Source: a virus. Taken from it: DNA of 64,000 nt. Under the pieces are notes generated by a model that was not told the origin of the DNA, did no database searches, and was given only the letters and a program-made list of their open reading frames with translations. This document shows positions 1,211 through 37,817 of the stretch, piece after piece; the first letter of the stretch is position 1, and each line of letters opens with the position of its first letter. The stretch covers positions 1 through 64,000 of the IMG/VR virus record IMGVR_UViG_3300035698_012707; one strand, given 5' to 3'. The translations under genes were made by a program, and so were the position numbers.

Positions 1211-3123
1211 ATGAATAAGGTTTTTTGTGGAAATTGTAAATATTATGTACCAATGACTTGTAATTACGGCGGAGATTATTGTGACAAGAAAATAGGATCA
1301 CACTATGAAGCGTACGGTGAAGAATTTGATAGAATAATAGATTATAAAGAAGCCAACGCTGAAAATAATTGCAAACATTATAAACGCATATGGTGGTTAT
1401 TTTGGAATAAGGAGGTAAAGTGAGCGAAAGAACAGAGTATTTTAAAAGATTAATGAAAAAAGCTTTAATAATATACGATAGTCTTGGTCCTAATGAATCA
1501 GAAGACGCAAAGGAATACATAGATAGTATGGACGTTAAACATGATCATAGACCATTTTATACAGACGATGCTGTTCCTTGCAAATGTGGAGAAAGATCTG
1601 ATGTAGTAGCATTTAGCGATAAGAACTATTGTTGCGATTGCTTACACTTCATAGAGAAGGAGAAAAATGTGGAAAGATAAAACGTGTGAATTGTGTATGT
1701 ACAACATAGATACAAGATGTAGAAAATTCCCAATAAGTACAACCGAATGGGAAATTGTAAGTTACTTAAGAACATATATAATAGAACACACTGTAAATGA
1801 AGGAGTTAGAATGACTTCATCAAAAGCTTGTGCAGAATATAAAGAGAGTAACTAATGAAATACATAGAACAGTTAACAAAATACGTAGAACGATTGGTTA
1901 ATACAATTTTAGTACTTATGATGCTTTGTCTAGTGTACAGTATTTTTGCAAGTTATATAATACCAGAACTTAAAGAAGGAGATGTGTCGCTAATATCCAA
2001 GGGATGGAGGAACAATAATGAACAGAGATAAATTTGAAAAATATTGCTTAGAACACGATTGGACTGTAGAGGGCCTAGAAGGACAAATAGTTGTAAGCAA
2101 AGGTAAAGAGTCATTTAAAGAACATCTTCATGTAGGAATGAGGCTAGGAGAACTAGTAGACAAAATGAAACACGCAGACTACGGGAAAGATGAAGTGCAG
2201 GGAAAGTTTCCTTTCACAAAATCCGATGAGTTACAAATGTAAGGAGGAGTTTTATGGTATCAAGAGTAAGAATAAACAGCAGAGTGCTGCCAAGGGATGA
2301 ACATGTATCAAGAGGTGTAACAGCAAGTCTTAATCCGACGCACAGACCATGGACATACAAGCTTAATTATAAGTCAGGCACATCAAGAACAAGAATTATG
2401 GATGTTATGGCCCACAATAGGCTAGAGATGTTTGCCAAGATGATAACAGACCACGCAGAAGAAGGAAGAGACTTCTTTGTATGGAATGTATCAAGAACAT
2501 TGAGATATCAGTCAAAAGTAAGAGACTATTAACAAAATAGAGAAAATAACGTTCTAGCGTTAGGTAAGATAGGTTGTGTTAATCGAAATGGACACCTGAA
2601 TAAGGAACTAGAAAGTCCATCTTAGATGGTGCAGGGTGGGGAATCCTGCTTTTCTCTGTTAAAATATTGGAGGTATGCCATGCGAATAACATTGTTAGTA
2701 TTTTTACCGTGGGTTGTGTTTGGACTATTGTCTTTAGTGCAATGGTGGAGCACATGGATAAATGTAACTATATCGTTTTTAATGCAAGTAATTTATTTTT
2801 TATCATTATATATTATAGGTTTATTTACAGATTATGATGAGGTAGAAAAAGAGACGGCTATTGAAAGAGCCAAAAAAGTAATAGGATAGGAGGAAACAAT
2901 GTTAAAACTATTTAAAATAGAATTAGAATTATGTGGTCCAGAAGAGACCAACAGTGAAGATGTATATGAATACATTAAGTCATTAACTAGAGAGAGCGAT
3001 ATCTCAGATATGAATGACATATTTGCTGTCGGCGGCATAGAAGTAGTGGAAGAAGGCGAAACAACTGTTGAGCAATGGAATGGTGATCCCGTTGACGAAA
3101 TAGATGTAGAGGATTTGACATAA
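1211..3123 (+). CDS. Run of about eight short hypothetical phage ORFs (1211-1423, 1420-1680, 1667-1855, small ORF from 1855, 2018-2242, 2254-2532, 2680-2889, 2899-3123)
   Basis: Abutting or overlapping start/stop codons with GGAG/GGAGG SD sites; several are Cys-rich. Confidence 0.65.
2536..2660 (+). ncRNA. Putative structured intergenic RNA
   Basis: Closing stem AATAGAGAAAA/TTTTCTCTGTT; inner stems TTCTAG/CTAGAA, CCATC-TTA-GATGG and GCAGG/CCTGC. Confidence 0.4.
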
Positions 3124-3521
3124 TGGATACAGAAGATCATGCAGACATAATGTCTCTTTTAAATATGCACCAAGATACTATAATACCCGTAACGCTACGC
3201 GAAGGTAGCATAGTTCCTGAAGATATGCAAAATGATTCAGATGGTCCTTATGTTCATGCAGATGAAAGAACATGTAACCATTGCGTAAGGCTAAGTTCAT
3301 GTTGGAGCGATGTAAACGTAGGTAGTATTCCGTTCAATTTTAGATATCGTTCAGGATGGGATGAAGACAGATATTTACATCATATGCGTGGTGTTACTGG
3401 GCAAATATGTGGTAACTTTCAACATAGAAATGGAGAAATTAATACACGACACGTACAGGCTGAACGCCGACGAAGAGAAGAAAATGGTGAAGGTAATGAA
3501 TGGGATGAAGAACAAAACTAA
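3123..3521 (+). CDS. Hypothetical protein, C-terminal tag WDEEQN
   Basis: ORF track; ends NEWDEEQN*. Confidence 0.75.
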   Translation: MDTEDHADIMSLLNMHQDTIIPVTLREGSIVPEDMQNDSDGPYVHADERTCNHCVRLSSCWSDVNVGSIPFNFRYRSGWDEDRYLHHMRGVTGQICGNFQHRNGEINTRHVQAERRRREENGEGNEWDEEQN

Positions 3522-3774
3522 AGTAAAAATTGGAGATAGAATAAAAATATTGGCAGCCTCCGATGGTGCAACAGGAGCAAATGATTGTATTGGTACAATT
3601 TTATCGTTGTTTCCTGATCCAGACATAAAAACACCACACGGTACCGGAAGAAATGATACTGGAATAATAGTACGAATAAAAGATTGCAAATATGGAGGCG
3701 GTATCTGGAATATCGGACCAAACCCTACATTTGAATTAATTGAAACAGAGTGGGACGAGGAGAACAATGTATAA
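3505..3774 (+). CDS. SH3/KOW-like small beta protein, C-terminal tag WDEENN(V)
   Basis: KVKIGDRIKIL start motif; start 3505 or 3484 more likely than 3361. Confidence 0.7.
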   Translation: MKNKTKVKIGDRIKILAASDGATGANDCIGTILSLFPDPDIKTPHGTGRNDTGIIVRIKDCKYGGGIWNIGPNPTFELIETEWDEENNV

Positions 3775-4015
3775 TATAGGAGACAGAGTAAAGTCTAAAT
3801 TAGATGGTGACGTATCAATGAATGAATGGTATTCTGGTAAAATAATACAAATAATAAAAGATGAACTTGAAACTACAGTATTTATAATGCGAGATGATGG
3901 CGAAAAAGGAAGTGGACCAAAGGGATCTTGGAAATGTAATATGCTGTCTAATAACAAAAACTCGATACAATTGTTAGATCAAGACTGGGATCCGGAGGAG
4001 AATAATGACAATTAG
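3767..4015 (+). CDS. SH3/KOW-like protein, C-terminal tag WDPEEN(NDN)
   Basis: MYNIGDRVKSK after GAGGAG SD. Confidence 0.75.
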   Translation: MYNIGDRVKSKLDGDVSMNEWYSGKIIQIIKDELETTVFIMRDDGEKGSGPKGSWKCNMLSNNKNSIQLLDQDWDPEENNDN

Positions 4016-4253
4016 AGTAGGAGATATAATAAAAAAAAGAACAAACTCCAGGATTCAGCCAGAAGAAACAACAATAGTTAGACATGTCGGTATACTTAAT
4101 GGGTGTGGACATCCTGATAGTATATGGTCAGAATTTGATTCAAAGTGGAATGGGGATAGGAAAGCAGCAAGCAATGGTGGTTGTCTTACTTATAGAAACT
4201 TAAGCCGTGTTGTGTTAGTTACGGATTGGGACGCGGAGGACAATAATGTTTAA
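4005..4253 (+). CDS. Small beta protein, C-terminal tag WDAEDN(NV)
   Basis: MTIRVGDIIK; GGAGGAG SD. Confidence 0.75.
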   Translation: MTIRVGDIIKKRTNSRIQPEETTIVRHVGILNGCGHPDSIWSEFDSKWNGDRKAASNGGCLTYRNLSRVVLVTDWDAEDNNV

Positions 4254-4491
4254 AGTTGGAGATACAGTAAAAATAAATATGAAAAGAATAAAAGCTTCTG
4301 ATTGGCATGGTTTTGGTAGTTGTGTACGTGACCAAATAATAAAATGGGAAGAAGAAAAAGTAAAACTTAAAGTAACTCGTGCTCAAAGAACTATAAGTAT
4401 AGTAAACGAAGACGGGAAAAGTTGTGGAGCTAGTTTTTATGAACATGAACTAACTTTAGTACAAGAAGACTGGGACAAGGAGAATAACTAA
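4246..4491 (+). CDS. SH3/KOW-like protein, C-terminal tag WDKENN
   Basis: MFKVGDTVKI...FYEHELTLV. Confidence 0.75.
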   Translation: MFKVGDTVKINMKRIKASDWHGFGSCVRDQIIKWEEEKVKLKVTRAQRTISIVNEDGKSCGASFYEHELTLVQEDWDKENN

Positions 4492-4835
4492 TGAAATTAA
4501 TTATAGCAAGAACAAGTAAATGCGTTCATCTACTATGGAGAGATACTTGGTCATTCTTGGAATACTACTATTGGGGCATACTAGCACTAACGTTTGCATT
4601 TGGTATATGTACATGTGGTATTTGTGCAGCAGGAATTAGTTCTCCAGATGGTTTTGCTTCATTAAAACCTTGGGTCAGTAAAACATTTAGTATTGCATCA
4701 TTTATGGTATTATCTTCTCTGGCAATATCCTTCATGATTTGGAGTTCATATCCACTTAGATGGATAAGAGATAGCTGGAGAAAAGCGTGTCAATTTATAC
4801 CAAAACCAGACGTCTGGGATAGAGAAGATAACTAA
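4491..4835 (+). CDS. Two-TM membrane protein, C-terminal tag WDREDN
   Basis: Two hydrophobic segments; ends DVWDREDN*. Confidence 0.7.
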   Translation: MKLIIARTSKCVHLLWRDTWSFLEYYYWGILALTFAFGICTCGICAAGISSPDGFASLKPWVSKTFSIASFMVLSSLAISFMIWSSYPLRWIRDSWRKACQFIPKPDVWDREDN

Positions 4836-5053
4836 TGACTAATTTTAAAGTAGGTCAAACGGTAAGATGTATTGTTAATGAAGATGCTCAACATGAAAGA
4901 CCTGGATCTGGATGGACAGAAGGATATAAATTTATAATAAAAAAAGTTACAAATGGATCTCCTAAAATATATTGGCCGGGAGAAAATCTTAACGGAATAT
5001 TCGAAGAACACGTAGAATTAGTAAACACAGACTGGGATAATGAGACAAACTAG
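4835..5053 (+). CDS. SH3-like protein, C-terminal tag WDNETN (paralogue of next gene)
   Basis: FKVGQTVRCI..GSGWTEG..YWP..GIFEEHVELV. Confidence 0.75.
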   Translation: MTNFKVGQTVRCIVNEDAQHERPGSGWTEGYKFIIKKVTNGSPKIYWPGENLNGIFEEHVELVNTDWDNETN

Positions 5054-5069
5054 TGGAGGTATTGTTGGT

Positions 5070-5321
5070 ATGGCTAAGTTTAGAGTAGGTCAAATAGTAA
5101 AATGTATTGATCCAATTAACCCCCGAGATAACGGAGAAAACGGTGGTGGAGGCGGATGGAAAGAAGGACGTAGATTTAAAATCGGACGTATAACTAATAC
5201 CGGAGATGATCGCGTACCAATTGTGTGGCCTTTTGACGAAAGAACTGGTATTGTAACGGCTGGTGTTTGGGAAGATTACGTAGAATTAGTAAGTACAGAA
5301 TGGGACGAAGAAACTAACTAA
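5070..5321 (+). CDS. SH3-like protein, C-terminal tag WDEETN
   Basis: FRVGQIVKCI..GGGWKEG..VWP..GVWEDYVELV; GGAGG SD. Confidence 0.75.
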   Translation: MAKFRVGQIVKCIDPINPRDNGENGGGGGWKEGRRFKIGRITNTGDDRVPIVWPFDERTGIVTAGVWEDYVELVSTEWDEETN

Positions 5322-13336: not shown

Positions 13337-13621
13337 ATGTTTAGAAAAGAAGACATAAAAAGAGGAATTGAAATAACATGCAGGATATCAGATACTGTTG
13401 TTAATTCAGCTAAAATACAAATACAAAATGATATGATATATATATGTCAAGACATGCTCGATGGTGACCAATGTATGGATAAATTTGGATATAGATATTC
13501 ATGGAGTGTAGGAATACTTGAAAATTTTAAAAATAGAACTGTTAAAGACTTCTTTTTAAATACAAACGTTAGCAACGTTAAGCTTAAGGAAGAACCAGAA
13601 TGGGATACGGAGAAAAATTAA
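13337..13621 (+). CDS. Hypothetical protein, C-terminal tag WDTEKN
   Basis: IYICQD..DG..C.DKFGYRYSW, typical of phage hypotheticals. Confidence 0.7.
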   Translation: MFRKEDIKRGIEITCRISDTVVNSAKIQIQNDMIYICQDMLDGDQCMDKFGYRYSWSVGILENFKNRTVKDFFLNTNVSNVKLKEEPEWDTEKN

Positions 13622-13995
13622 TGAAAGAGCACATACATGACATCAAAGAGATGAAAGAATGGATGGATGCTAAGCCATATGGTGGTAATCTCGATTACGC
13701 TATTGAAAGAGTTGAATATTTTAGAGATGAGTTATTTAAATATTCTAAGTTTGACATTGGAGATGAAATAGAAATAGCAAAAGATATGGAGTTAACCTTA
13801 GAAACATCTCCAGGATATATGGCCTATTTTGATAGACTACAGGTTGGGTGTTGTGGTATAGTCGTAGAAGTAGACCATTATAAAGGTGTATTTAGATACT
13901 CTGTTACAATGGATCCTCAAAAAAAGGACGAGGGTTACTTTACTATACGTGAGGAAACTCTAAAGTTAAAGGGATGGGATCAAGAAGGAAATTAA
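13621..13995 (+). CDS. SH3-like protein, C-terminal tag WDQEGN
   Basis: KFDIGDEIEI; coupled TAATG start. Confidence 0.7.
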   Translation: MKEHIHDIKEMKEWMDAKPYGGNLDYAIERVEYFRDELFKYSKFDIGDEIEIAKDMELTLETSPGYMAYFDRLQVGCCGIVVEVDHYKGVFRYSVTMDPQKKDEGYFTIREETLKLKGWDQEGN

Positions 13996-14363
13996 GGAGT
14001 TATCATGGGAAAAGACATAAGAGACATGGAAGGCATAGAAGTTATGGCAGCATTTGCTGCTGCTTGGGTTAAGTATTTAATATTGATGATATTTGTTGTG
14101 TGTTCGTCTGTAGCTCATATAGCCAAAAAGTTTAAAAGGAGCGATAAAGATGTCTAAAGATATACATTTAATGCGTATTGATAAGATTTGTTCTAAATGT
14201 AATTATAAAAATAAAGGCGAATACAAATTAGACGAACCGATGGATATAATATGTTGCGGTAATTGTGGCTCAATTCTTTCAAAGCCAGATGATATGACTA
14301 AAGATGAACAAGAAAAGGTATCTCTGTGCGTTAAGCAAGCACTAGAAGATGGGGAGGAATAGA

Positions 14364-14732
14364 ATGTTTTATTGTAATGAGTGTGGTCAATGTAGCTTTA
14401 TCAATGATGATGATTTTTATGAAAATAGAAATACATGGGGCTGGGAAAAAAATTCAATAGACTGTAACGACGGAGAATATATGGATCATATAGACTCAGA
14501 AACAACAGACTCAGAACAAACTAGCTACGAATGTCCTCATTGTTGTGGAGAAGACATAGAATCTGATTGGAGCGGTTCGGAAAACGAAGCACTTGAACAA
14601 AGAACAGCATATGAAGAATATGTAAGACTTAACGAACAAACAATCCGATTAGCTAGAGAACGACTACATAAAGAACAAAAAGCAAAAGATCCACAAAGAG
14701 AATGGGATGTGGCAAAAAATGTTAATGTTTAA
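14364..14732 (+). CDS. Zinc-ribbon protein, C-terminal tag WDVAKN(VNV)
   Basis: CNEC...CPHC. Confidence 0.7.
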   Translation: MFYCNECGQCSFINDDDFYENRNTWGWEKNSIDCNDGEYMDHIDSETTDSEQTSYECPHCCGEDIESDWSGSENEALEQRTAYEEYVRLNEQTIRLARERLHKEQKAKDPQREWDVAKNVNV

Positions 14733-14958
14733 GATAGACGATAAAATAAAATTAAAAACCTATGAAGAATGGGGAGATCATAAAATCCACAGAGGGAAAA
14801 CAGCAAGAATAATTAGAAGATCAAGTTCTTCAACGTTTGATTGGAGAATAGTGTGGAGAGACGGAAAAGAATCTCAAGCTAAAGAATACAATATGGTAAA
14901 AATAAATATGGATTGGGATGAAGAGTTTAACGAATCGGATGAAAAATGTTTAATATAG
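14725..14958 (+). CDS. SH3-like protein, tag WDEEFN near C-terminus
   Basis: MFKIDDKIKLKTYEEWGDH; paralogue of next gene. Confidence 0.7.
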   Translation: MFKIDDKIKLKTYEEWGDHKIHRGKTARIIRRSSSSTFDWRIVWRDGKESQAKEYNMVKINMDWDEEFNESDEKCLI

Positions 14959-15164
14959 GAGACGAAGTAAAACTTAATAGCTATGAAGGATTTGGTGATT
15001 ATACACGTCATAAAGATCAAATTGCAACAATAATAGATTTTATTAATGTTGATGATGATAGTATGCCCTATCAACTTAGATGGAATGACGGTTACGTTTC
15101 TTTTGCGTCGCCTAAAAATATAGTAATAGTAAACCAGGAGTGGGATGATGAAGTTAACGGATAA
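14946..15164 (+). CDS. SH3-like protein, C-terminal tag WDDEVN(G)
   Basis: MFNIGDEVKLNSYEGFGDY. Confidence 0.7.
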   Translation: MFNIGDEVKLNSYEGFGDYTRHKDQIATIIDFINVDDDSMPYQLRWNDGYVSFASPKNIVIVNQEWDDEVNG

Positions 15165-15259: not shown

Positions 15260-15628
15260 ATGAAAACAGTTAAGGTAGCAAGAGTAGGCAGTAAAGTGCA
15301 AGAAGTAGCAGTACGAATAGAAGCAACAATAGAAGAATGTTTAGAAGCAGCTAATATACAGCTGGGGGCTAATGAAGATGTGTATGAAAACCATGTAAAG
15401 CGTTGCATTGGAACAAACGCTCTCATTGGGTCAACTTTAGTTGTTGAACCGCAGAAAATAGTTCCTTTATCAAGTAAAGTAATGGGAATAATAGACATAC
15501 TATCAGAAGAAGAATGTATAGATGCTGATGATTATTATGACGATTACGATAATACAGATTATAATTGGATATACAGTGAATATGGAAAAATGATAAATGA
15601 TATAATTAAAGTAGCTAGGGAGGGTTAG
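15260..15628 (+). CDS. Ubiquitin-like (beta-grasp) domain protein without diglycine, acidic C-terminal extension
   Basis: MKTVKVARVGSKVQEVAV..ATIEECLEAA aligns with the Ubl repeats at 17596. Confidence 0.75.
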   Translation: MKTVKVARVGSKVQEVAVRIEATIEECLEAANIQLGANEDVYENHVKRCIGTNALIGSTLVVEPQKIVPLSSKVMGIIDILSEEECIDADDYYDDYDNTDYNWIYSEYGKMINDIIKVAREG

Positions 15629-15629
15629 C

Positions 15630-16310
15630 ATGGACTTTGATGACCGAGACGGAGTAGTCGAGGAAAGATATTCTAGACATTGGGATATGTTAGATGTTGA
15701 AAGACTTCATACATTGCCGATTAGAATAGTTGGAGCTGGAAGCGTAGGCAGTTTTACTTGCTTAAGCTTAAGCAAAATGGGTGCTAAGAACATAAAAATA
15801 TATGATGATGATATGGTTGATGAACACAACATTTCAAATCAGTTTTATAGAACTCAAGACGTTGGTGAGTTTAAGGTTGATGCACTACAAAGTATGATAA
15901 TGGATTTTGAAGGCGTTCCTATTCAAATAGAGAACGAACGATGGTATGGTAATGATGATTGTAACGGTGTAATAATAGCAGCCGTTGATAATATGGATGC
16001 CAGGAAGAGGATATGGGAGAAAGTCAAAGGAAACAATGATGTATCTCTTTTTATTGACCCTCGGATGGGAGGAAAAACCGCAAGAATATATTATGTAAAT
16101 CCTCTTTCTGGTTCTAAAAAATACGAAGAAACATTATATGACGATGATGAAGCAGCGCAAGAAAGATGTACGGAAAGAACTATAATATATAACGTATTAG
16201 GAATAGCAAGCTTTATATCAAAAGGTATAGCAGATTGGATGGCGGATGGAGTAGAAGATTGCAAGGAATTAATATTAGACTATGCAACTTTTACTCTTAT
16301 GGTTAGATAA
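15630..16310 (+). CDS. ThiF/MoeB/E1-family activating enzyme
   Basis: IVGAGSVGS, DDDMVDEHNISNQFY, KVDAL and AAVDNMDAR motifs; candidate catalytic Cys in ERCTER. Confidence 0.9.
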   Translation: MDFDDRDGVVEERYSRHWDMLDVERLHTLPIRIVGAGSVGSFTCLSLSKMGAKNIKIYDDDMVDEHNISNQFYRTQDVGEFKVDALQSMIMDFEGVPIQIENERWYGNDDCNGVIIAAVDNMDARKRIWEKVKGNNDVSLFIDPRMGGKTARIYYVNPLSGSKKYEETLYDDDEAAQERCTERTIIYNVLGIASFISKGIADWMADGVEDCKELILDYATFTLMVR

Positions 16311-16328
16311 AATAATCGTAATAACTAG

Positions 16329-16357
16329 TTGAAAAATGTAGTATTTTGTGGTATTAT
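16329..16357 (+). promoter_or_regulatory. Sigma70-type promoter
   Basis: TTGAAA-17 bp-TATTAT with extended -10 TG. Confidence 0.65.
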
Positions 16358-16378
16358 AGGTATATAGGGAGGTGAAGA

Positions 16379-16540
16379 ATGAAGAAAAAAACTAAAGCAA
16401 TAAGAATAGCAGAGAATAGTTATGACTATCTAGTTGCAGTATCTCTCAAAGATAGAAGAGGTATGGGAGTTACCCTAGACCTAATTTTAGAGGAGCATAA
16501 AAATGCCACAAAAAAGCGAAAAAGAAAGAAAAAAGTATAA
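16379..16540 (+). CDS. Small basic protein, possible ribbon-helix-helix DNA binder (53 aa, below track cutoff)
   Basis: GGGAGGTG SD; MKKKTKAIRIAENSYDYL...GMGVTLDLILEEH. Confidence 0.55.
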   Translation: MKKKTKAIRIAENSYDYLVAVSLKDRRGMGVTLDLILEEHKNATKKRKRKKKV

Positions 16541-16970
16541 TATGCTAAGACAACGAAAACATCGTAAGTCTAATAAAGAAAAGAACTTACAATATCGAAG
16601 AGAATATTATGAAAACAATAAAGATCACATATTATTGCTAAAAAAAATATGGAGAATTAATAACAAAGAAAAAGAAAGAGAATACAAAGTTTGGTATAGA
16701 ATAAATCATCCATGGAGTGTTACTTTAGAAAACGTAAAAGCAAGGGTTAGCGGTAGGAATACAAGACATGATTACACTAGTATAAAAAATACGCTAACAT
16801 TAAAACAATTAGAATATCTATGGAAAAGAGACAAAGCTGACCATATGCTTAAATCAGCATTACATAGAAAAAACAATAATGGAGATTACACAGTGAGAAA
16901 TTGTGAGTATGTTGAGAGCGGATGGCACTCTTCATACCACAATAAACAAAGAAAAAAGGACATTAAATGA
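16503..16970 (+). CDS. HNH homing endonuclease-like protein
   Basis: Basic helical N-terminus; LHRKNNNGDYTVRNCEYVESGWH. Confidence 0.7.
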   Translation: MPQKSEKERKKYNMLRQRKHRKSNKEKNLQYRREYYENNKDHILLLKKIWRINNKEKEREYKVWYRINHPWSVTLENVKARVSGRNTRHDYTSIKNTLTLKQLEYLWKRDKADHMLKSALHRKNNNGDYTVRNCEYVESGWHSSYHNKQRKKDIK

Positions 16971-17094
16971 CAGCAGGGAAAAATAATCCAAATTATGATG
17001 AATGGAAAATAAAACATCCTTCATTATGGCTTAAGGGAGCAAAAGAACTATTTTATAAAATTGTGTCAAAAATAAACAATAAAGGCAAATTAAA

Positions 17095-17448
17095 ATGAAT
17101 AAGAAAATAATAATATTTGTATTAATGATACTATTTTTTACGCAAAATTTTAGTCATGCTGGCGGTAATCCATTCACTAAATATTATATGACTAATGGAT
17201 ATTCAAATGGTAGATATCTTATTGATTTTACTAATACATCAGCAGATACTGCAGATGTTTGTGGAACAATACATTATACTCGTGGTATAATAGATACTTT
17301 TTTTAGATATAATCCAGAAATATATAACAAACACTATAAGAATATGTCGTCAAATGAGATAAGTATTATGGTACAAAGATTCTATAAAAATAATCCAGAT
17401 AAAAGATATTTACCAATAGTAGATGTTGTTTTTGACGGATGTAAATAG
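17095..17448 (+). CDS. Secreted protein with signal peptide
   Basis: MNKKIIIFVLMILFFTQNFSHA signal-like N-terminus; very AT-rich. Confidence 0.65.
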   Translation: MNKKIIIFVLMILFFTQNFSHAGGNPFTKYYMTNGYSNGRYLIDFTNTSADTADVCGTIHYTRGIIDTFFRYNPEIYNKHYKNMSSNEISIMVQRFYKNNPDKRYLPIVDVVFDGCK

Positions 17449-17454
17449 AACAAT

Positions 17455-17568
17455 TTAGGTATAAGTTCTTTTATTTGCAAAATAATAGAAGATTATATGA
17501 AAAATGGTGTAGAAAGTAATCGAGAGCTGGTTCTTGATTACGCAACATACACCTTGTTAACAAGGTAA
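17455..17568 (+). pseudogene. Displaced original 3' end of the E1 gene
   Basis: LGISSFICKIIEDYMKNGVESNRELVLDYATYTLLTR* versus E1 LGIASFISKGIADWMADGVEDCKELILDYATFTLMVR* (23/37 identical, no gaps). Confidence 0.85.
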
Positions 17569-17595
17569 GACCCAAAAAACAAAAGGAGGTAGACA

Positions 17596-18009
17596 ATGAT
17601 TACAGTCAAAGTCGCTCGTTTGGGAAACACAGTGCAGGAAGTTGCACTCAATGAAGGTTCATCCGTTCAGGATGCTCTAACAGCTGCTGATCTCGCAGTA
17701 GACGGTGAGGATATTCGTATCAACTCATCAAACTCTAACCTTACAGATGTAGTACGTAATGGAGACATTATTACTCTTGTACCAAAGGTAAAGGGTGGAC
17801 AAAAGCTCGTTAAGGTCGCAAGACTAGGTTCAACAGTGGAAGAAGTTGCTGTTCCTAACGACGCTACAATTGAGTATGCTCTTGAAGCAGCCGATGTTGT
17901 AGTAGACAACGAAGACATCCGTTTGGATGGCCGCTCTGCAAGTTTATCAGATAGTATTGGCAACGCGTCAATGATCACTATCGTTCCAAAGGTAAAAGGT
18001 GGTAAGTAA
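17596..18009 (+). CDS. Tandem di-ubiquitin-like precursor (2 x 68 aa, each ending VPKVKGG, final extra Lys)
   Basis: Internal repeat visible directly; strong AGGAGGT SD. Confidence 0.9.
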   Translation: MITVKVARLGNTVQEVALNEGSSVQDALTAADLAVDGEDIRINSSNSNLTDVVRNGDIITLVPKVKGGQKLVKVARLGSTVEEVAVPNDATIEYALEAADVVVDNEDIRLDGRSASLSDSIGNASMITIVPKVKGGK

Positions 18010-18032
18010 TATCCCCCCACAGTAAAAAATCC

Positions 18033-18068
18033 GAGGGCGGTATGTGCAATGCATATCGTCCTCATTTT
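18033..18068 (+). terminator. Stem-loop after Ubl gene (terminator or mRNA stabiliser)
   Basis: GAGGGCGGTATGT/GCATATCGTCCTC stem followed by ATTTT. Confidence 0.55.
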
Positions 18069-18135
18069 AAAGGAGTGTGATGCAAACAAAAATACATGTT
18101 GTATTAATGTTTTCAATATTTTAAAAGGAGGAGTA

Positions 18136-19290
18136 ATGAGCGAAAAGAAAAAGTATCAAATAAAATACAGTGGAGATGGTACACCGTCAACAAAGGTGAA
18201 ATCATCATATGATAAGTTGTTGCAAGAGCTTGCTAATGACTTTGAAATAGACATAGAAGTTGTTACATGTCATGGAAAATATGACTATATACCCGCAGAA
18301 TTAGACTTTGAAAAGTTCTACATATTTGCACAGTTAGTACCAGACGTTATAGCTTATAAGGGTAAAAAGTTGTCTAAACTTATGTTGGGCGATAAGGAAG
18401 TAACTGTAACTGGTGGTCAAACAGATAGCATGAAAATAGTCGGAGCTATGCCAAAAGATGCTACAGTTATAAATGATTCAAAAGGTGAAGCCTTAGCAAT
18501 TGTATACGACGCATCCTTGTACATATTAAATGATTTTATTCATTGTCATTCAAAGGATGAATTAGACAATAGTTTAGAAATATTTAAGTATATCGTTAAC
18601 GAAGCAACTAAAACACCAGAACTATTGAAAGCACTTAAGTATGGCACGGAAGAAAAAGGACGTAAGTCTTTAGAAATAGCGTTAAAGAAACAATACAAAG
18701 AAAGACTTAAGAAAGAAAAAGTATTACTTGATAGTTCAGAGAAACTTATAGATAATTATACTCAGGAACTTACAAAAGCAAGTAGAAAAATAATATCTAC
18801 ACAAAATATTATTAAAGCAATTCACAGCAATCTAGAAGATATTCCAGAATCTCTTGAAAAGAAATGGAATTCTGCAAAAAAGCTAGAGAGTACACCAATA
18901 TTTGAATCTGTTAGTTTCCAGAGAAATTCTGTAAAAGCTGTTACGACTGAAATATTTGTAACAGAAAAGAAAGTAACATATCAAATGGGAAAATTTGAGA
19001 TTGTCCTAGAATTCAATGGTAATATAAGAATAATGTCAATGTGGCCACAAAGAGGACCTTCGCAACAGCATCCTCACGTAAGTGCTGAAGGTCGTCCATG
19101 CTGGGGAAACCTCAGTGGAGAGTTACCAAAAAGGATAGCAGAAAGTGAATTTGACGTTGCATTTGTAGAGATACATACATTTCTATGTCATTATTCACAA
19201 GAAGGCGGTCCATATGCTAATATTAATCACTGGCCACAAGCAACAGCAAAACAAATAGCTATGCTTAAAGCTGACAAAGTTAGAACGTAA
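18136..19290 (+). CDS. E2/UBC-like conjugating enzyme with N-terminal domain and coiled coil
   Basis: HPHVSAEGRPC has the same spacing as the E2 motif HPNxxxxGxxC; AGGAGG SD before ATG 18136. Confidence 0.7.
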   Translation: MSEKKKYQIKYSGDGTPSTKVKSSYDKLLQELANDFEIDIEVVTCHGKYDYIPAELDFEKFYIFAQLVPDVIAYKGKKLSKLMLGDKEVTVTGGQTDSMKIVGAMPKDATVINDSKGEALAIVYDASLYILNDFIHCHSKDELDNSLEIFKYIVNEATKTPELLKALKYGTEEKGRKSLEIALKKQYKERLKKEKVLLDSSEKLIDNYTQELTKASRKIISTQNIIKAIHSNLEDIPESLEKKWNSAKKLESTPIFESVSFQRNSVKAVTTEIFVTEKKVTYQMGKFEIVLEFNGNIRIMSMWPQRGPSQQHPHVSAEGRPCWGNLSGELPKRIAESEFDVAFVEIHTFLCHYSQEGGPYANINHWPQATAKQIAMLKADKVRT

Positions 19291-19300
19291 GGGGGAAGTA

Positions 19301-20281
19301 ATGGGAGAAATAACTACAAAAACAAAGTTCCAAGCTCTATATATTGACCCAGAATGTAAGAAAAAATTACAATACTGGGCAGATGCAGCCGTTGGAGAAG
19401 TTAGTGGTCTTGGTCTTGTAGACAATGAAGACGGAAGAATGGTGGTAAGAGAGGTCTACATCTTAGAACAGGAATGTTCAGGAGCAGACACAGAGCTTGA
19501 TCCAGAGGCTATATCTAAGCTTATGATGGAAATTTTGCAAGCTGATAAAGATCCAGCCAAGTTAAAGTTCTGGTGGCATAGTCATGTTAATATGGGTTGT
19601 TTTTGGAGTGGAACTGATGATGAATGTGCTGAAACGTTAAGCAAAGAATTTGCATTCAGTACCGTAGTCAACAAGAAAGGCGAATCTAAAACAAGGCTTG
19701 ATTTATATGAGCCGTTTAGAATAACTGTAGACAATATTCGTCTTATCGAGATAACTGCAGAAGATGAAAATCTTAAAAAACAATGCGAACAAGACGTAAA
19801 AGAAAAAGTAAAAACAAAATCATGGACAAGAAATTATAATCAACATAATAATGGAAAAGGATACTATGATCAGAAAAAGTGGGATAACTTTGGAAGGTGT
19901 GGAAGCCCATATGAGGATCCATATGATTATGCTGAAACATCCAAAGTAAAGTTAAAAGACGACATAGTTGAAGACATTAAACTTCTTAGTGATCTTATAT
20001 TTGATAACGGATTTTCAGCCATTGCGTTGAATAGCTTTATTTATGATATAACAAATCAGGCCATAGAGAAGATATATGGTGATAAAGCAGAATGTAAGGA
20101 TGGAATAGGAACATATTCCGAAAATGAAAAACTTTGTAAAAAATGCAAGATATCAAAACAGTGTGAATTGTTGACAGATAAACTAAAGGAGCCATTGGAT
20201 GAAAATGATACTTGTAGCGAACATAATAAGGAAGACATTTCCGAAGATAGTGTTGAAGTTATCGTCGATCCTGATAATTGA
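19301..20281 (+). CDS. JAB/JAMM (MPN+) metalloprotease
   Basis: GEVSGLG plus HSH-x7-S-x2-D (WWHSHVNMGCFWSGTD). Confidence 0.9.
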   Translation: MGEITTKTKFQALYIDPECKKKLQYWADAAVGEVSGLGLVDNEDGRMVVREVYILEQECSGADTELDPEAISKLMMEILQADKDPAKLKFWWHSHVNMGCFWSGTDDECAETLSKEFAFSTVVNKKGESKTRLDLYEPFRITVDNIRLIEITAEDENLKKQCEQDVKEKVKTKSWTRNYNQHNNGKGYYDQKKWDNFGRCGSPYEDPYDYAETSKVKLKDDIVEDIKLLSDLIFDNGFSAIALNSFIYDITNQAIEKIYGDKAECKDGIGTYSENEKLCKKCKISKQCELLTDKLKEPLDENDTCSEHNKEDISEDSVEVIVDPDN

Positions 20282-20622
20282 GGGTCTTTTTTTAGCAATA
20301 GATAAATATTTATTTCAACGGTTACGTAAGGAGCCAGAAATGACAAAGAAAACAGAAAAAAATGAAAACGTATATTGTCAAATATGTTACTTGCAAAGTG
20401 ACAATAGTCCAGATGTAAAGTTTCATTTATATGAAGAGGGTACATTTTCATATCCAACCGAAATGCATATATGTCAAAAATGCTTAGACTGGGTAAATTT
20501 TATGAGAAAAATGGCATCTGAACAAGCAAAGTTTCCAGAAAAGGATTCATTTGAGAATTCTAATTGGTGGTGGCAACCTAAAAAAGAGGGTCATTCTGCA
20601 GCCGAAATGTGTGTAAAATAGG

Positions 20623-20651: not shown

Positions 20652-20865
20652 ATTAATATAACCGGAGGAGGAATTTCATGGTTAAAAGACCAAAAGAAAA
20701 GGTAGTTGGATGCGGAACATGTTTGTTTCGTGGAGGAGAACCTTATACAGATGAAACGTTAGATAAGGTTGAGAGAGTTTATTGCAAAGCTAGGAAGGTT
20801 GCAGTTGATGTCGAAATAATGAACAAGTTTTGCGACCACTTTCAGGTCAAACCGCAGGAGACGGA

Positions 20866-21540
20866 ATGATAAAAGAATGTAAAAAATGTGGAGAAAATAA
20901 ATCTCTTGACAGTTTTTACGTAGATAATTCGAAAAAAAACAATATTTCGTCTTATTGTAAACTATGTGTGTTAGAGAAGCAAAAAACATATTATCACTAT
21001 AAAAAAGGTAATATTGTGTTAAAAGAAAAAAGATGTAGTACCTGTGGTATTACAAAAAATACAACAGAGTTTCCAAAGAAAGCTAACGGAAAGTATGGAG
21101 TAGCATCAATTTGTCTTGTATGTCAGAGAAACTGGATGTCAGAATATTACAAGACTCCGGGCGCTAAGATTAAACAAAGAACAAGAGATGCCAAGAAGTT
21201 CTTAAAAAACATAGAATCATTATCAGAAAAAGAAAAAAGACGTAGATATAATAAAAATTTAAGCCTTAAACATCTTTATGGAATAACTTTATCTGAGTAT
21301 GAGGGTATGTTAATAGAACAAAAGTTTAAATGTGCTATTTGTGGCACCAAAGTATCAGAGATACCATATAATGATCACTCAACTAAGAGAAAAGACACCT
21401 TATACGTAGACCATAATCACAAAACTGGTGAAATACGAGGTCTATTATGTGGCTCATGTAACGGCGGAATTGGGCAGCTTGGAGATAGCATATCAATACT
21501 TAGAAAAGCTATAAAATATTTAAGGAGAAATACATGTTGA
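20866..21540 (+). CDS. Endonuclease VII-like (homing) nuclease with N-terminal Zn fingers
   Basis: YGITLSEY..QKFKCAICG..VDHNHKTGEIRGLLCGSCNGGIG. Confidence 0.85.
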   Translation: MIKECKKCGENKSLDSFYVDNSKKNNISSYCKLCVLEKQKTYYHYKKGNIVLKEKRCSTCGITKNTTEFPKKANGKYGVASICLVCQRNWMSEYYKTPGAKIKQRTRDAKKFLKNIESLSEKEKRRRYNKNLSLKHLYGITLSEYEGMLIEQKFKCAICGTKVSEIPYNDHSTKRKDTLYVDHNHKTGEIRGLLCGSCNGGIGQLGDSISILRKAIKYLRRNTC

Positions 21541-22099: not shown

Positions 22100-23019
22100 A
22101 TGAGACTTGAATCAAAAACAAAAATAGGCGATGGAACGGTAGATAGAATAATCTATGATGATATTTATGGTGCTAGTGAATTTTTTGAGCCTAAGATATG
22201 GATAGACACTTGGTCTAAAGATAAATTTTGGCTAAAAACAGCAGCAGGAGAAAAAATATCAGTTTCTAAGTTAGAATTAAAGCAATTGAACTTTAAAATA
22301 ATAACTAGAAACGTAGGAACGCGGTCTAATAGGCTCTACAAGCATTTTATGACAGTAAATAGTCCAAGAAAAGCTTCAGAGAGAATACCACTACTTAGTA
22401 TCGCAAGAAAACTTAATAAAGTATGGAAAAGGAGTATTAATGTCGAAGAACAATACAGACGAAGGTATCAATATGGATTCAGATTCTGGAATCCCGAAAA
22501 GTGAGAACTTAACAACAGATCAAAAGTTAGAGAATTTAGCTAGGAATTTATTTATATTACTTAAGAAGCAAGATGATATTAGCTTGGCTTTAGACAATGT
22601 ATATATACAAGTAGCAACTCTGATAGAAATTCTCGCAGAACATGAAAACATACTTAACCCTGATTTATGGGAAAAGAAGTTAAAAGAAGTAACAAAAAAT
22701 ATAAAAGACACCATGGAGGCAATGGAGAATGAAGCAGCAAATGCTGGACAAGATAATGTCACAAATCCCGACGGGGCAGATGCGTCACAGGGAAGTGGAA
22801 AAATTATTACTCAAGATCATACAATCATTATACCAGGTCAGTAAAGAAGAAGGATATGCTTGGAGTGGTAATTTAATTGATGTCGGAGGAAGAATTGGTC
22901 TTTTAACCGAAACAGGGGAAATTGTAGAACTTGACTCTGTACTTCCAAAAGGAGAAACCGGAAGGTTTATGCTGATATGGACACAAGATGATAGTGAAAA
23001 ACTTAAAAGAGAAGTATAA
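22100..23019 (+). CDS. Three hypothetical ORFs (22100-22504, 22440-22844, third ending 23019)
   Basis: ORF track. Confidence 0.55.
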
Positions 23020-23590
23020 TACATGCAATACGTGTGATAAATGTATAAATGATTGCAAAGTATTTGGTTATGGAAATACAAACGCAGATTTAATGATAAT
23101 AGGAGAGAGCCCCGGAAAAGATGAAGCAGAAGCTGGTGTTCCATTTATTGGTCAGGCAGGTCAGCTGCTTGATAAAATATTAGCAGCAATAAACATAAAA
23201 CGTGAAGATGTTTATTTTTCGAATACCATTCTATGTAGAACAAACGAAAAGGATCGAACCCCATCTTGGGATGAGATACAAAATTGTGCTGAAAGGTTGG
23301 ACGAGGAGATAAATATCGTAAAACCTAACGTTATACTAATGGTCGGCAGCCAAAGCTTAAAGCGCTTTTTTGGCAAAGATTCCAAGGTGACTGAATGTCA
23401 TGGGCGATGGTTTCTTGACTTCAAGCCTCCTTACGCACGATACTTTTCGATAATGCATCCTTCTTGGGCTCTCCATAGTTCTACCCCTGGAGAGTTAAAG
23501 GCAAAGAAAAGAACTCTATGGGAAGATATTAAGCGTTTTTCTAACGATTTAGAAGTAGTTAACTTTGAACTAAGGAGAGAAAATGTATAG
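22988..23590 (+). CDS. Uracil-DNA glycosylase, family 4
   Basis: CxxCxxC, IGESPG.DE..G.PFIGQAGQLL, N.ILCR and MHPS motifs. Confidence 0.9.
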   Translation: MIVKNLKEKYNTCNTCDKCINDCKVFGYGNTNADLMIIGESPGKDEAEAGVPFIGQAGQLLDKILAAINIKREDVYFSNTILCRTNEKDRTPSWDEIQNCAERLDEEINIVKPNVILMVGSQSLKRFFGKDSKVTECHGRWFLDFKPPYARYFSIMHPSWALHSSTPGELKAKKRTLWEDIKRFSNDLEVVNFELRRENV

Positions 23591-37570: not shown

Positions 37571-37646
37571 TGCGGGATGGAGCAGTGGTCAGCTCGAGTG
37601 TCTCATAAGCACTAGGTCGTGGATTCGAATTCCGCTCCCGCAACCA
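37571..37646 (+). tRNA. tRNA-Met(CAT)
   Basis: Cloverleaf; loop CTCATAA; T-loop TTCGAAT; CCA end. Confidence 0.9.
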
Positions 37647-37716
37647 TATAATAATAACTATTTATACTCTTAACCTAGTGACTATTTGAAAGTAAAAATT
37701 TCGCAGAGAGTTATTA

Positions 37717-37803
37717 GCGGGTGTGGTGAAATTGGCAAACACGCTAGATTTAGAATCTAGTGTCAGAGATGACATGGGAGTTCAAGTCTCTCCACCCGCA
37801 CCA
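37717..37803 (+). tRNA. tRNA-Leu(TAG)
   Basis: CTAGA-TTTAGAA-TCTAG; long variable arm; CCA. Confidence 0.92.
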
Positions 37804-37817
37804 AGTTTAAATTATAT

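What the first reader, a model, noticed from the sequence alone, without database searches (positions are those of the whole stretch)
15260..20281. Phage-encoded ubiquitin-like conjugation locus: Ubl-fold protein, E1, di-Ubl, E2-like, JAB
SEEN: co-oriented genes with ThiF/E1 motifs (GAGSVGS, DxDxVxxxNxxxQ), a Ubl ending in GG, an E2-type HPHVxxxGxxC motif with canonical spacing, and a JAMM HSH-x7-S-x2-D protease. No thiamine, molybdopterin or sulfur-transfer genes are nearby. ESTABLISHED: bacterial E1-E2-JAB(-Ubl) modules conjugate proteins in antiphage defence (CBASS Cap2/Cap3; Bil-type systems). INFERENCE: here the virus owns the whole cascade, so it may modify host or phage proteins, counter host Ubl defences, or exclude competing phages. 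The ~270-aa N-terminal and coiled-coil part of the E2 could provide E3-like substrate selection.
Basis: partly seen in the sequence, partly recalled or inferred. Interest (0 to 1): 0.88.

Follow-up and report, generated by a model that had tools for sequence, protein, structure and literature searches.

The report
Phage-encoded ubiquitin-like tagging kit
A virus of salt-lake microbes carries its own ubiquitin-style set of genes (tag precursor, activating enzyme, transfer enzyme, trimming protease), and the transfer enzyme belongs to a large family, found in phages and bacteria, that the protein family libraries searched here do not hold.

Summary
In detail: all five genes and every quoted motif are at the stated coordinates. 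Tools support each assignment:
- ThiF-type E1, with Cys180 kept in 47 of 47 relatives.
- A two-unit SAMP2-like Ubl precursor, each unit ending PKVKGG, with a one-residue cap.
- A JAMM protease related to Rpn11.
- A 384-aa E2-like protein whose C-terminal domain has a UBC fold. Its HPH-x7-Cys aligns on the HPN...Cys of UBE2L3.
- A GG-less Ubl paralogue upstream of E1.

The block keeps its order in 19 related metagenome loci.

New here:
- The E2 domain matches no Pfam, NCBIfam or PADLOC model, yet has 1,630 cluster representatives.
- It sits beside E1 and/or JAB in 7 of 8 viral loci and 47 of 53 bacterial or MAG loci.
- Unlike Bil or CBASS E2s, it keeps the classical histidine upstream of the cysteine.
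- Its N-terminal half is a GATase1-like domain plus a long helix.

Conjugation, targets and biological role remain untested.

I rate it a new variant of a known kind (prokaryotic E1-E2-JAB-Ubl systems). Earlier notes of this scan report phage Ubl cassettes on other DNA. I found no paper describing phage-encoded cascades.

The parts
15260..15628 (+). Ubl122: N-terminal beta-grasp paralogue of the Ubl units without a GG, plus an acidic/aromatic C-terminal helix region. Its stop lies 1 nt before the E1 start.
   Evidence: BLASTP to the di-Ubl units: 60% identity over 40 aa, E 4e-10. In all 6 aligned sequences (window plus 5 relatives) E-x-x-K stands where the Ubl has PKVKGG. A homologue is present upstream of E1 in 5 of 6 related loci that reach that far and is absent in L013.
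15630..16310 (+). E1: small single-domain ThiF/MoeB-type adenylating enzyme. GAGSVGS at 15732-15752; candidate catalytic Cys180 at 16167-16169.
   Evidence: Pfam ThiF 2.4e-17, 63.3 bits against a cut-off of 28.1. phmmer hits PaaA, UBA5, UBA1 and NAE1 in the PDB. Cys180 is kept in 47 of 47 E1s of the narrow and broad families; the Arg finger, GxGxxGS, DxD, K and D..M..R are conserved.
16379..17448 (+). Insert of three small ORFs (53, 155 and 117 aa; the last begins with a hydrophobic stretch that reads like a signal peptide, my reading of its sequence). Not part of the conserved module.
   Evidence: No reliable Pfam or PHROG family. Relatives L002, L003, L004, L009, L013, L014, L015 and L016 have the di-Ubl directly after E1. 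L011 has a different insert at the same site.
17596..18009 (+). di-Ubl precursor: unit 1 at 17596-17799, unit 2 at 17800-18003, each ending VPKVKGG; Lys cap at 18004-18006; stop at 18007-18009.
   Evidence: Pfam ThiS 22.8 bits against a cut-off of 22.5. The profile hits P. furiosus SAMP2 (5lda_B) at 3.3e-6, aligned to its terminal GG. PKVKGG+Q and PKVKGG+K are invariant in 9 of 9 sequences.
18136..18645 (+). E2L N-terminal domain (residues 1-170), class I glutamine-amidotransferase-like alpha/beta fold. His46 and His136 are the best-kept residues.
   Evidence: AF2 model of the domain alone: pLDDT 88.7, pTM 0.86. Foldseek best hit is the GATase subunit 2a9v, E 1.6e-3, prob 0.99. VIA Z is at most 6.5 (IFT52-N, GATase1, ThuA-like). 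These are weak, fold-level matches only. The domain HMM recurs weakly in about 17 broad-family proteins. Cys45 and Cys137 are not kept there.
18646..18891 (+). E2L long helix (residues 171-252), coiled-coil-like. Its last turns serve as helix alpha-1 of the UBC fold.
   Evidence: The DSSP helix spans 171-252 in the model. VIA alignments to E2s begin at model residues 233-237, matching E2 residues 2-9.
18892..19290 (+). E2L C-terminal UBC-fold domain. HPH at 19069-19077; candidate catalytic Cys322 at 19099-19101.
   Evidence: VIA-wide: top 16 rows are E2s, Z 7.0-7.8, 114-130 aligned. pdb_via: top 14 rows are E2s. Foldseek: E2s at E 0.05, prob 0.93-0.94. Profile A8 against the PDB: the top 9 sequences are UBE2L3 or an unnamed variant that aligns identically, E 0.016-0.046, with HPH on HPN and Cys on the catalytic Cys. 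H, P, C and G are invariant in 142 diverse relatives.
19301..20281 (+). JAB/JAMM (MPN+) metalloprotease with a roughly 150-aa Cys-containing C-terminal extension. The H93-x-H95-x7-S103-x2-D106 motif is at 19577-19618.
   Evidence: The profile hits PSMD14/Rpn11 at 1.7e-7 and CSN5 at about 1e-3. E33, H93, H95, S103 and D106 are invariant in 9 of 9 sequences. Pfam Prok-JAB reaches only E 0.009. The gene lies directly after E2L in all 15 related loci that have downstream sequence.

Best explanation
This is a virus-run ubiquitin-like protein conjugation cascade.

Shown by homology: the phage encodes a two-unit Ubl precursor, a ThiF-type E1, a UBC-fold E2-like protein and a JAMM protease. The genes are kept together across a phage clade.

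Inferred mechanism:
- The JAMM protease cuts after each PKVKGG, removing the Lys cap and probably separating the two units, which exposes Gly-Gly.
- E1 adenylates the C-terminal Gly and takes the Ubl onto Cys180.
- The Ubl passes to Cys322 of the E2-like protein, next to the HPH flap.
- The E2-like protein, probably dimerised through its long helix, places the Ubl on lysines of targets bound by its GATase1-like N-terminal domain. It would thus act as a combined E2/E3.
- JAMM may also reverse the mark.
- The GG-less Ubl122 is probably a non-conjugatable accessory of E1.

Inferred role: the block is syntenic and sits among early and replication genes of a phage with lytic-type features. I therefore favour a pro-viral role, modifying host or phage proteins during infection and possibly countering defence, over a defence cassette.
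For: - Component identities.
- Catalytic residues are invariant. E1 Cys180 is kept in 47 of 47. E2 H-P...C-x-G is kept in 142 of 142. The JAMM E/HxH/S/D residues are kept in 9 of 9. PKVKGG is kept twice in 9 of 9.
- Synteny in 19 related metagenome loci at 43-81% E2L identity. The di-Ubl lies upstream of E2L in 13 loci, JAB downstream in 15, and E1 upstream of the di-Ubl in 9. In each case these are all the loci that reach that far.
- In the wider family, an E2-like gene lies next to E1 in 7 and next to JAB in 6 of 8 viral loci.
- Of 53 genome loci, 47 have E1 or JAB beside the E2-like gene: E1 in 38, JAB in 28, Ubl in 26.
- JAB presence tracks capped Ubls. With JAB, 9 are capped and 3 end in GG; without JAB, 3 are capped and 11 end in GG. 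Fisher p = 0.016.
- No sulfur-relay partners occur in the record.
- Neighbours are endonuclease VII and a ~200-aa ORF (22988-23590) that I read as a UDG-like gene from its sequence; its PHROG matches name only an unknown family and a DNA-polymerase family. The same pairing of JAB and E1 lies in the replication clusters of FpV4 and a crAss-like phage.
Against: - There are no biochemical data, and no RNA run holds the locus.
- Structural scores for the E2 domain are middling (Z below 8), and the sequence link to E2s is borderline: E 0.016, and 1 of 106 relatives hits UQ_con at 2.9e-5.
- E1 has no ubiquitin-fold domain and no separate Cys domain. SAMP-type Ubls can be conjugated without any E2.
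- The N-terminal domain's fold match is weak, and its Cys residues are not conserved.
- The same module in bacterial chromosomes lies beside integrases, transposases and methylases, as defence cassettes do. A defence or exclusion role is therefore a live alternative.
- The host is unknown and the record is 58% complete.
- The JAB-versus-cap correlation rests on many related NC10 genomes, which are not independent.
Confidence: 0.45

Rival explanations
1. The biochemical cascade is the same, but the role is a Bil-like weapon carried by the phage. It would tag structural proteins of competing phages (superinfection exclusion), or it is simply a mobile defence cassette riding in the genome.
For: The characterised bacterial E1-E2-JAB-Ubl systems are anti-phage (PMC11601596, introduction read; abstract of 10.1101/2023.09.04.556158). 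In 12 chromosomal loci of the wider family, the flanks hold a phage integrase, resolvase/recombinase, a DDE transposase, a DNA methylase and VapE beside housekeeping genes. The N-terminal regions of the E2-like proteins vary greatly, with protein lengths of 150-743 aa, as expected of conflict systems.
Against: In this clade the block is not an accessory. It keeps its place and order among replication genes at down to 43% identity. No PADLOC model matches the E2, JAB or Ubl. I saw no integrase or lysogeny gene in the ORFs that I scanned.
Confidence: 0.25
2. The Ubl is a sulfur carrier. E1 makes a Ubl thiocarboxylate for a thiolation reaction on tRNA, DNA or a cofactor. JAB only matures the precursor, and the E2-like protein relays persulfide or is a scaffold.
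For: The E1 and Ubl are nearest to ThiF/ThiS, MoaD and SAMP-type proteins. Cultured-phage homologues of the E1 are annotated as 'thiamine biosynthesis protein ThiF'. The genome carries eight tRNAs.
Against: The 81-kb record has no PP-loop ATPase, rhodanese or cysteine desulfurase. A UBC-fold protein with an invariant HPH...Cys is kept beside E1 in 7 of 8 viral loci and 38 of 53 genome loci. Known sulfur-carrier operons need no such protein. A head-to-tail capped precursor with a JAMM protease is the layout of conjugated modifiers.
Confidence: 0.08
3. Conjugation is E2-independent, as in archaeal sampylation. The E2-like protein is a non-catalytic Ubl-binding adaptor or regulator.
For: The Ubl profile's best solved relative is SAMP2. 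The E1 is a minimal MoeB-like enzyme. From recalled knowledge, not from a call, archaeal SAMP conjugation needs only UbaA.
Against: The Cys and the HP of the E2 motif are invariant in 142 of 142 diverse family members, and they align on the catalytic Cys of UBE2L3. Non-catalytic UEV/RWD-type E2 folds have typically lost that Cys (recalled).
Confidence: 0.1

Closest known systems
Bil (BilABCD) anti-phage systems, Types I and II (operon types 6d and 6c of Iyer et al. 2006)
   Same: The parts list is the same four: Ubl, E2, JAB deubiquitinase and E1. The wider family's usual gene order is E2-JAB-E1 with the Ubl at one end, and Bil operons run Ubl-E2-DUB-E1 (PMC10557695 passages). Ubls with several beta-grasp units, and residues after the conserved Gly that the DUB must remove, are also described there.
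   Different: Bil E2s have the conserved His downstream of the Cys and lack the classical upstream His (PMC10557695; Iyer 2006 table). Here the motif is HPH-x7-C, as in classical E2s. Bil E1 has inactive and active adenylation domains, a Cys domain and a 4-Cys zinc site; this E1 is 226 aa with one conserved Cys. The E2 here carries a GATase1-like domain and a long helix. The window's gene order is Ubl122-E1-diUbl-E2-JAB. The owner is a phage.
Eukaryotic classical E2s (Ubc13, UbcH10, UBE2K, UbcH7/UBE2L3)
   Same: They are the best structural matches. The H-P-x tripeptide lies 10 residues before the Cys, the same spacing as in the UBE2L3 alignment.
   Different: The motif is HPH rather than HPN. 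Identity is only 8-17%. The window protein gives no Pfam UQ_con hit. The domain is fused behind a coiled coil and an extra domain.
Archaeal SAMP2 / UbaA / JAMM1 sampylation
   Same: The Ubl units are SAMP2-like beta-grasps ending in GG. The system has a small MoeB-like E1 and a JAMM protease.
   Different: This system has a conserved E2-like enzyme. The E1 scores 31 bits against the 450-bit cut-off of the UbaA model. The precursor is a capped tandem.
Eukaryotic polyubiquitin precursor genes
   Same: Units lie head to tail, each ends in GG, and extra C-terminal residue(s) must be removed. This comparison is recalled knowledge and was also made in first-reader note e1-6115792.
   Different: There are two units only, they are SAMP/ThiS-like rather than ubiquitin, and the protease at hand is a JAMM enzyme.
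Type II CBASS Cap2/Cap3 and the Bub (6E) pathways
   Same: They use E1/E2-type chemistry with a dedicated protease in prokaryotic conflict systems (PMC11601596, abstract and introduction).
   Different: There is no E2-E1 fusion, and no CD-NTase in the record. Cys is conserved, unlike the Ser/Tyr oxyester chemistry of Bub, and there is no DUF6527 protease.
'Thiamine biosynthesis protein ThiF' genes of Flavobacterium phages (FpV4 group) and crAss-like phages
   Same: The E1 is homologous (28-30% identity, E 1e-16 to 1e-18, 81 phage records). A JAB gene lies directly upstream (my HMM, 3.4e-6 and 8e-8). The pair sits inside the replication gene cluster.
   Different: The roughly 420-aa gene upstream of JAB there gives no hit to the E2-domain HMM, and no Ubl was detected.

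Membership tests
UBC/E2 fold superfamily | alpha/beta UBC fold (N-terminal helix, antiparallel sheet, C-terminal helices) | tested here: met
   The top 16 rows of a search of 48,161 chains are E2s (Z 7.0-7.8, rmsd 3.2-6.2, 114-130 aligned, model residues 208-373). The top 14 rows of the second look are E2s. Foldseek gives prob 0.93-0.94 at E 0.05. Z below 8 is middling by the tool's own note.
UBC/E2 fold superfamily | Catalytic Cys preceded by the HPN-type tripeptide | tested here: met
   HPH312-314 and Cys322. The profile alignment to UBE2L3 puts HPH on HPN and Cys on the active-site Cys. H, P, C and G are invariant in 142 relatives. The third residue is His, not Asn.
UBC/E2 fold superfamily | Recognised by a curated E2 model (Pfam UQ_con or Prok-E2_A to E) | tested here: not met
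   No such hit for the window protein or for any of the 25 narrow-family members at E up to 1. Of 106 broad-family proteins scanned (106 of the 142 aligned), 1 hits UQ_con at 2.9e-5 and none hits Prok-E2.
UBC/E2 fold superfamily | Forms a Ubl~Cys thioester | not testable with these tools
   Needs biochemistry.
Bil (BilABCD) | Operon holding Ubl, E2, JAB DUB and E1 | tested here: met
   All four kinds are present. The order in the window differs.
Bil (BilABCD) | BilB-type E2: conserved His downstream of the Cys, no classical upstream His | tested here: not met
   HPH lies upstream of the Cys. The feature is taken from PMC10557695 passages and the Iyer 2006 table.
Bil (BilABCD) | BilD-type E1: inactive plus active adenylation domains, Cys domain, 4-Cys zinc site | tested here: not met
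   The E1 is 226 aa with one ThiF domain, and only Cys180 is conserved.
Bil (BilABCD) | Matches defence-system HMMs | tested here: inconclusive
   PADLOC gives no hit for the E2, JAB or Ubl of the window or of L073 and L043; the E1 hits only Cap2 E1 regions. I do not know whether PADLOC 2.0.0 holds Bil models.
Type II CBASS Cap2/Cap3 | E2 and E1 fused in one protein, with a CD-NTase in the operon | tested here: not met
   The genes are separate. There is no SMODS match in the 81-kb record; the record is 58% complete.
Archaeal SAMP/UbaA/JAMM | SAMP-type beta-grasp ending GG | tested here: met
   SAMP2 5lda_B at 3.3e-6, aligned to its terminal GG.
Archaeal SAMP/UbaA/JAMM | UbaA-type E1 and no E2 | tested here: not met
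   NCBIfam SAMPActivE1UbaA scores 31.3 bits against a cut-off of 450. An E2-like gene is conserved in the block.
Bub (6E/DUF6527) | E1 and E2 without catalytic Cys (oxyester chemistry); DUF6527 serine protease | tested here: not met
   The Cys is conserved in both enzymes. There is no DUF6527 in the record. Features are taken from the PMC11601596 abstract and introduction.
ThiS-ThiF / MoaD-MoeB sulfur-carrier pathways | ThiF-type adenylating enzyme with a GG-ended beta-grasp partner | tested here: met
   All NCBIfam ThiF and MoeB equivalog scores are far below their cut-offs.
ThiS-ThiF / MoaD-MoeB sulfur-carrier pathways | Sulfur donor or acceptor genes alongside (rhodanese, cysteine desulfurase, PP-loop ATPase) | tested here: not met
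   None in the 81-kb record. The record is incomplete.

The most novel reading that the evidence does not exclude
Phages of this clade run their own ubiquitylation. The E2-like protein would be a self-contained E2/E3 whose GATase1-like N-terminal domain picks the targets. Candidate clients or adaptors are the clade's own family of small proteins that end in a W-D-x-E-x-N tail: 26 of 149 + strand ORFs in the window carry it. More widely, the HPH...Cys domain would define an undescribed, very large phage and bacterial E2 family that is the nearest prokaryotic-world relative of classical eukaryotic E2s.
Probability: 0.15. Interest if true: 0.9.

Novelty: new variant of a known kind. Interest (0 to 1): 0.72.

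Why it matters
- Every characterised prokaryotic E1-E2-JAB-Ubl system that I could find in print belongs to bacteria and acts against phages. Here the virus owns the full set, keeps it in a fixed place among its replication genes, and shares it with a whole clade.
- The E2 domain is absent from Pfam, NCBIfam and PADLOC, yet has 1,630 cluster representatives. It is almost always beside E1 and/or JAB, so a large, coherent system has gone unannotated.
- Phage E1 homologues in public records are labelled 'thiamine biosynthesis protein', which is probably misleading.
- The E2 keeps the classical H-P-x...Cys arrangement that other bacterial E2-like families have lost. This bears on where eukaryotic E2s came from.
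- The Ubl ends K-G-G, so trypsin should leave the same diGly remnant as ubiquitin. Targets could then be found with standard reagents.

Tried and rejected
- Cultured-phage records: blastn of the locus and tblastn of E2L found nothing. tblastn of the broad-family member P0057 also found nothing.
- The search for related loci with A1 in viral contigs found no relative.
- The profile of full-length E2L (A1) and the profile of 106 long relatives (A7) gave only coiled-coil noise against the PDB. I replaced them with a profile of short family members.
- The Atlas feature search on homologue P0005 returned only unnamed, mostly viral clusters (best 0.91) and no named family.
- Catalytic Cys-His hypothesis for the N-terminal domain: rejected as a general feature, because Cys45 and Cys137 are not kept in distant members.
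- Note e1-6115796 says an HNH cassette replaced the E1 C-terminus. I reject this. The E1 aligns to its last residue with relatives that lack the insert (81-82% identity). The 155-aa ORF has no HNH or other family hit.
- Promoter and terminator scans were at chance level: 23 found against 27.2 expected, and 2 against 2.2.
- Sequencing runs: no RNA holder is listed. Three salt-lake DNA runs hold half or more of the sampled words.
- The WD-tail link to the Ubl system is only a co-occurrence within one clade: 14 of 321 ORFs in clade loci, 0 of 317 in other viral loci, and 6 of 3,167 in genome loci. It is not independent evidence.
- Bacterial Cap2 and BilB structures did not appear in the listed rows. 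This is no evidence that the folds differ.
- Literature: eight searches and passages of PMC10557695, PMC1779556, 10.1101/2023.09.04.556158, 10.1101/2024.10.26.620412 and 10.1101/2021.07.29.454249 showed no description of a phage-encoded E1-E2-JAB-Ubl cascade or of this E2 family. The last paper reports only E1-like genes in Asgard viruses. Supplementary tables, such as the lists of Bil operons, were closed and may hold phage-borne examples.

Full report
**What is there.** The window is the first 64 kb of an 81-kb IMG/VR virus record that CheckV rates 58% complete. It has phage hallmarks:
- endonuclease VII; an ORF at 22988-23590 that I read as UDG-like from its sequence has only unknown-function and DNA-polymerase PHROG matches;
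- a repair exonuclease, a UvsX-like recombinase and an HNH endonuclease;
- eight tRNAs;
- in the remaining 17 kb, a primase-helicase, an NrdD-like reductase, glycosyltransferases and a virion structural protein.

Near-identical DNA is held by salt-lake metagenome runs, three of them with half or more of the sampled words.

All five genes of the finding are on the + strand at the stated coordinates. I re-read every quoted motif by translation.

**E1 (15630-16310).**
- Pfam ThiF at 2.4e-17, above the cut-off.
- The nearest solved sequences are PaaA, UBA5 and other E1s.
- NCBIfam ThiF, MoeB, UbaA and PRTRC models all score far below their cut-offs. It is therefore a ThiF-fold enzyme of no named subfamily.
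- I aligned 47 E1s from this clade and from the wider family. Cys180 (QERCTER) is kept in all 47. The Arg finger, GxGxxGS, DxD, Lys and D..M..R motifs are also kept.
- No other Cys is conserved, so the zinc site of many E1s is absent.

**Ubl (17596-18009).**
- The 137 aa comprise two 68-aa units plus one Lys.
- Both units end PKVKGG, followed by Q and by K respectively, in 9 of 9 sequences.
- The profile hits Pyrococcus SAMP2 at 3.3e-6, with the alignment running to SAMP2's terminal GG.
- Pfam ThiS just passes its cut-off.

**JAB (19301-20281).**
- Pfam Prok-JAB reaches only E 0.009.
- A nine-sequence profile hits PSMD14/Rpn11 at 1.7e-7 and CSN5 at about 1e-3.
- Glu33, His93, His95, Ser103 and Asp106 are invariant.

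**Ubl122 (15260-15628).** This is a paralogue of the Ubl units (E 4e-10). It has no GG in any of the 6 aligned sequences, the window plus 5 relatives, and it ends in an acidic helix region. It is found upstream of E1 in 5 of 6 relatives that reach that far.

**The E2-like protein (18136-19290).** The start at 18136 follows AAGGAGG and matches the homologues.
- No Pfam, PADLOC, NCBIfam or informative PHROG family matched the protein. None matched any of 25 aligned relatives either. Of the 27 hits, I left out two partial proteins, P0024 and P0025.
- The AlphaFold model (pLDDT 84.9) has three parts: an alpha/beta domain (residues 1-170), an 80-residue helix (171-252) and an alpha/beta domain (253-384).
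- For the C-terminal part, an all-against-representatives structural search put E2 enzymes in the first 16 rows (Z 7.0-7.8, 114-130 residues). A second look put E2s in the first 14 rows. Foldseek gave E2s at E 0.05, prob 0.93-0.94. These scores are middling by the tool's own standard, but the rows are uniform and cover the whole domain.

*Sequence link to E2s.*
- A profile of the C-terminal domain found 1,630 cluster representatives at E up to 1e-3, of which 285 were at 1e-10 or better.
- In those proteins, 150-743 aa long, the domain is at the C-terminal end behind helical and variable regions.
- H, P, C and G of HPH...C-x-G are invariant in 142 of them.
- Of 106 scanned, 1 hits Pfam UQ_con at 2.9e-5 and none hits any Prok-E2 family.
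- A profile of short members gave UBE2L3 (or an unnamed variant that aligns identically) as the nine best PDB sequences (E 0.016-0.046). HPH aligned on HPN and the Cys on the catalytic Cys.

*N-terminal domain.*
- Folded alone, it gives pLDDT 88.7.
- It resembles class I glutamine-amidotransferase-like folds only weakly: Foldseek E 1.6e-3, VIA Z at most 6.5.
- Its HMM recurs weakly in about 17 broad-family proteins. There His46 and His136 are mostly kept but Cys45 and Cys137 are not.
- I therefore do not propose a thiol active site. A binding or metal site is possible but untested.

**Conservation of the block.**
- Nineteen metagenome loci encode close relatives of E2L at 43-81% identity.
- Wherever the contig reaches, the order is Ubl122, E1, di-Ubl, E2L, JAB, then a small Cys-rich protein and replication genes.
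- The three ORFs between E1 and the di-Ubl in the window (16379-17448) are an insertion. Eight of nine relatives lack it, and one has a different insert.

**The wider family.**
- A degenerate pattern for the E2 motif found 8 viral loci. Seven hold a clear E2-like gene, with E1 next to it in 7 and JAB in 6, in the order E2-JAB-E1.
- The same pattern found 76 loci in species-representative genomes, mostly MAGs of Methylomirabilota, Chloroflexota, Bacteroidota, Ignavibacteriota and others.
- Of these, 53 hold the E2-like gene. E1 is present in 38, JAB in 28 and Ubl in 26. At least one of E1 or JAB is present in 47. All four parts are present in 11. None is present in 6, mostly at contig edges. 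The other 23 pattern hits had no family match.
- Ubls there end in GG or in GG plus a few residues. Capped Ubls go with JAB: 9 capped and 3 uncapped with JAB, against 3 and 11 without (p = 0.016). Many of these genomes are related, so the test is lenient.
- Flanks of 12 loci on long contigs mix housekeeping genes with an integrase, recombinases, a transposase and a methylase. In bacteria the module therefore looks like a mobile cassette.
- These HMMs were built by me from this clade, and the hit thresholds refer to small databases.

**Cultured phages.** E1 homologues occur in 81 phage records, chiefly Flavobacterium phages of the FpV4 group and crAss-like Bacteroides phages. They are annotated as thiamine biosynthesis proteins. 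In FpV4 and in cr111_1 a JAB gene lies directly upstream of E1 inside the replication cluster. The roughly 420-aa gene before it does not match the E2 HMM.

**Mechanism.** I commit to a conjugation cascade, as set out under Best explanation. The steps from precursor trimming to transfer are inferred from homology and conserved residues. None is shown. The sulfur-carrier rival is weakened by two observations: the record holds no sulfur-relay genes, and an E2 with an invariant Cys is constantly present. The biological role is open. I favour a pro-viral role because of the fixed place of the block among early and replication genes. The defence-like context in bacteria keeps inter-phage exclusion alive as a rival.

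**Comparison with known systems.** The parts list equals Bil. However, the E2 (classical upstream His), the E1 (minimal, one Cys), the added E2 domains and the viral owner all differ. It is not CBASS: there is no fusion and no CD-NTase. It is not Bub: the Cys is kept and there is no DUF6527. It is not plain sampylation, because an E2 is present.

**Novelty.** Eight literature searches and the passages I read gave no description of a phage-encoded cascade or of this E2 family. Supplements were closed. Earlier notes of this scan report phage Ubl/E1/E2/JAB cassettes on other genomes. I did not test whether they are the same family. I class the finding as a new variant of a known kind.

Noticed in passing
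window 3123-51585, e.g. 3123-5321, 13337-15164: 26 of 149 + strand ORFs (50 aa or longer, first 52 kb) have W-D in their last 14 residues, mostly as W-D-x-E-x-N at the very end. None of 91 opposite-strand ORFs does. Relatives keep W-D-acidic ends (L013, L011). The tails are confined to this clade: 14 of 321 ORFs, against 0 of 317 and 6 of 3,167 elsewhere. This could be a docking tail; a link to the Ubl system is untested.
   Followed up: partly
window 16379-17448: Three small ORFs are inserted between E1 and the di-Ubl; the third begins with a hydrophobic stretch that reads like a signal peptide (my reading of its sequence). Eight of nine relatives lack the insert. L011 carries a different insert at the same site, two small ORFs that likewise begin with hydrophobic stretches. 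This looks like a hot spot for small cargo genes.
   Followed up: partly
window 20199-20621 and 20678-20869: Two small Cys-rich (zinc-ribbon-like) proteins directly follow JAB and are kept there in relatives: g140 in L003, L010, L012, L013 and L017-L019; g63 in L010, L012, L013 and L017-L019. The conserved part of the first starts after the JAB stop. They might belong to the module, but this was not tested.
   Followed up: no
L105 (Flavobacterium phage FpV4) 2048-5118; L106 (crAss-like cr111_1) 1972-5202: A JAB-E1 pair lies inside the replication cluster of cultured Bacteroidota phages. The E1 is annotated 'thiamine biosynthesis protein'. It is preceded by a roughly 420-aa protein of unknown family with no E2 HMM hit.
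   Followed up: partly
L033-L104, Methylomirabilota (NC10) loci such as L044, L056, L088: Many NC10 genomes carry E2-like, E1 and Ubl genes without a JAB gene, and their Ubls end exactly at GG.
   Followed up: partly
L067 4222-6965: Two E2-like paralogues lie in tandem ahead of one JAB and one E1.
   Followed up: no
window 37571-38953: A cluster of eight tRNA genes: Met, Leu, His, Gln, Pro, Ile, Cys, Trp.
   Followed up: no
window 52117-63998 (- strand) and L107 2-6334: The gene strand switches near 52 kb. The minus-strand arm holds sugar-modifying genes: a nucleotide-sugar epimerase, glycosyltransferases and a heptose-phosphate adenylyltransferase-like protein.
   Followed up: no
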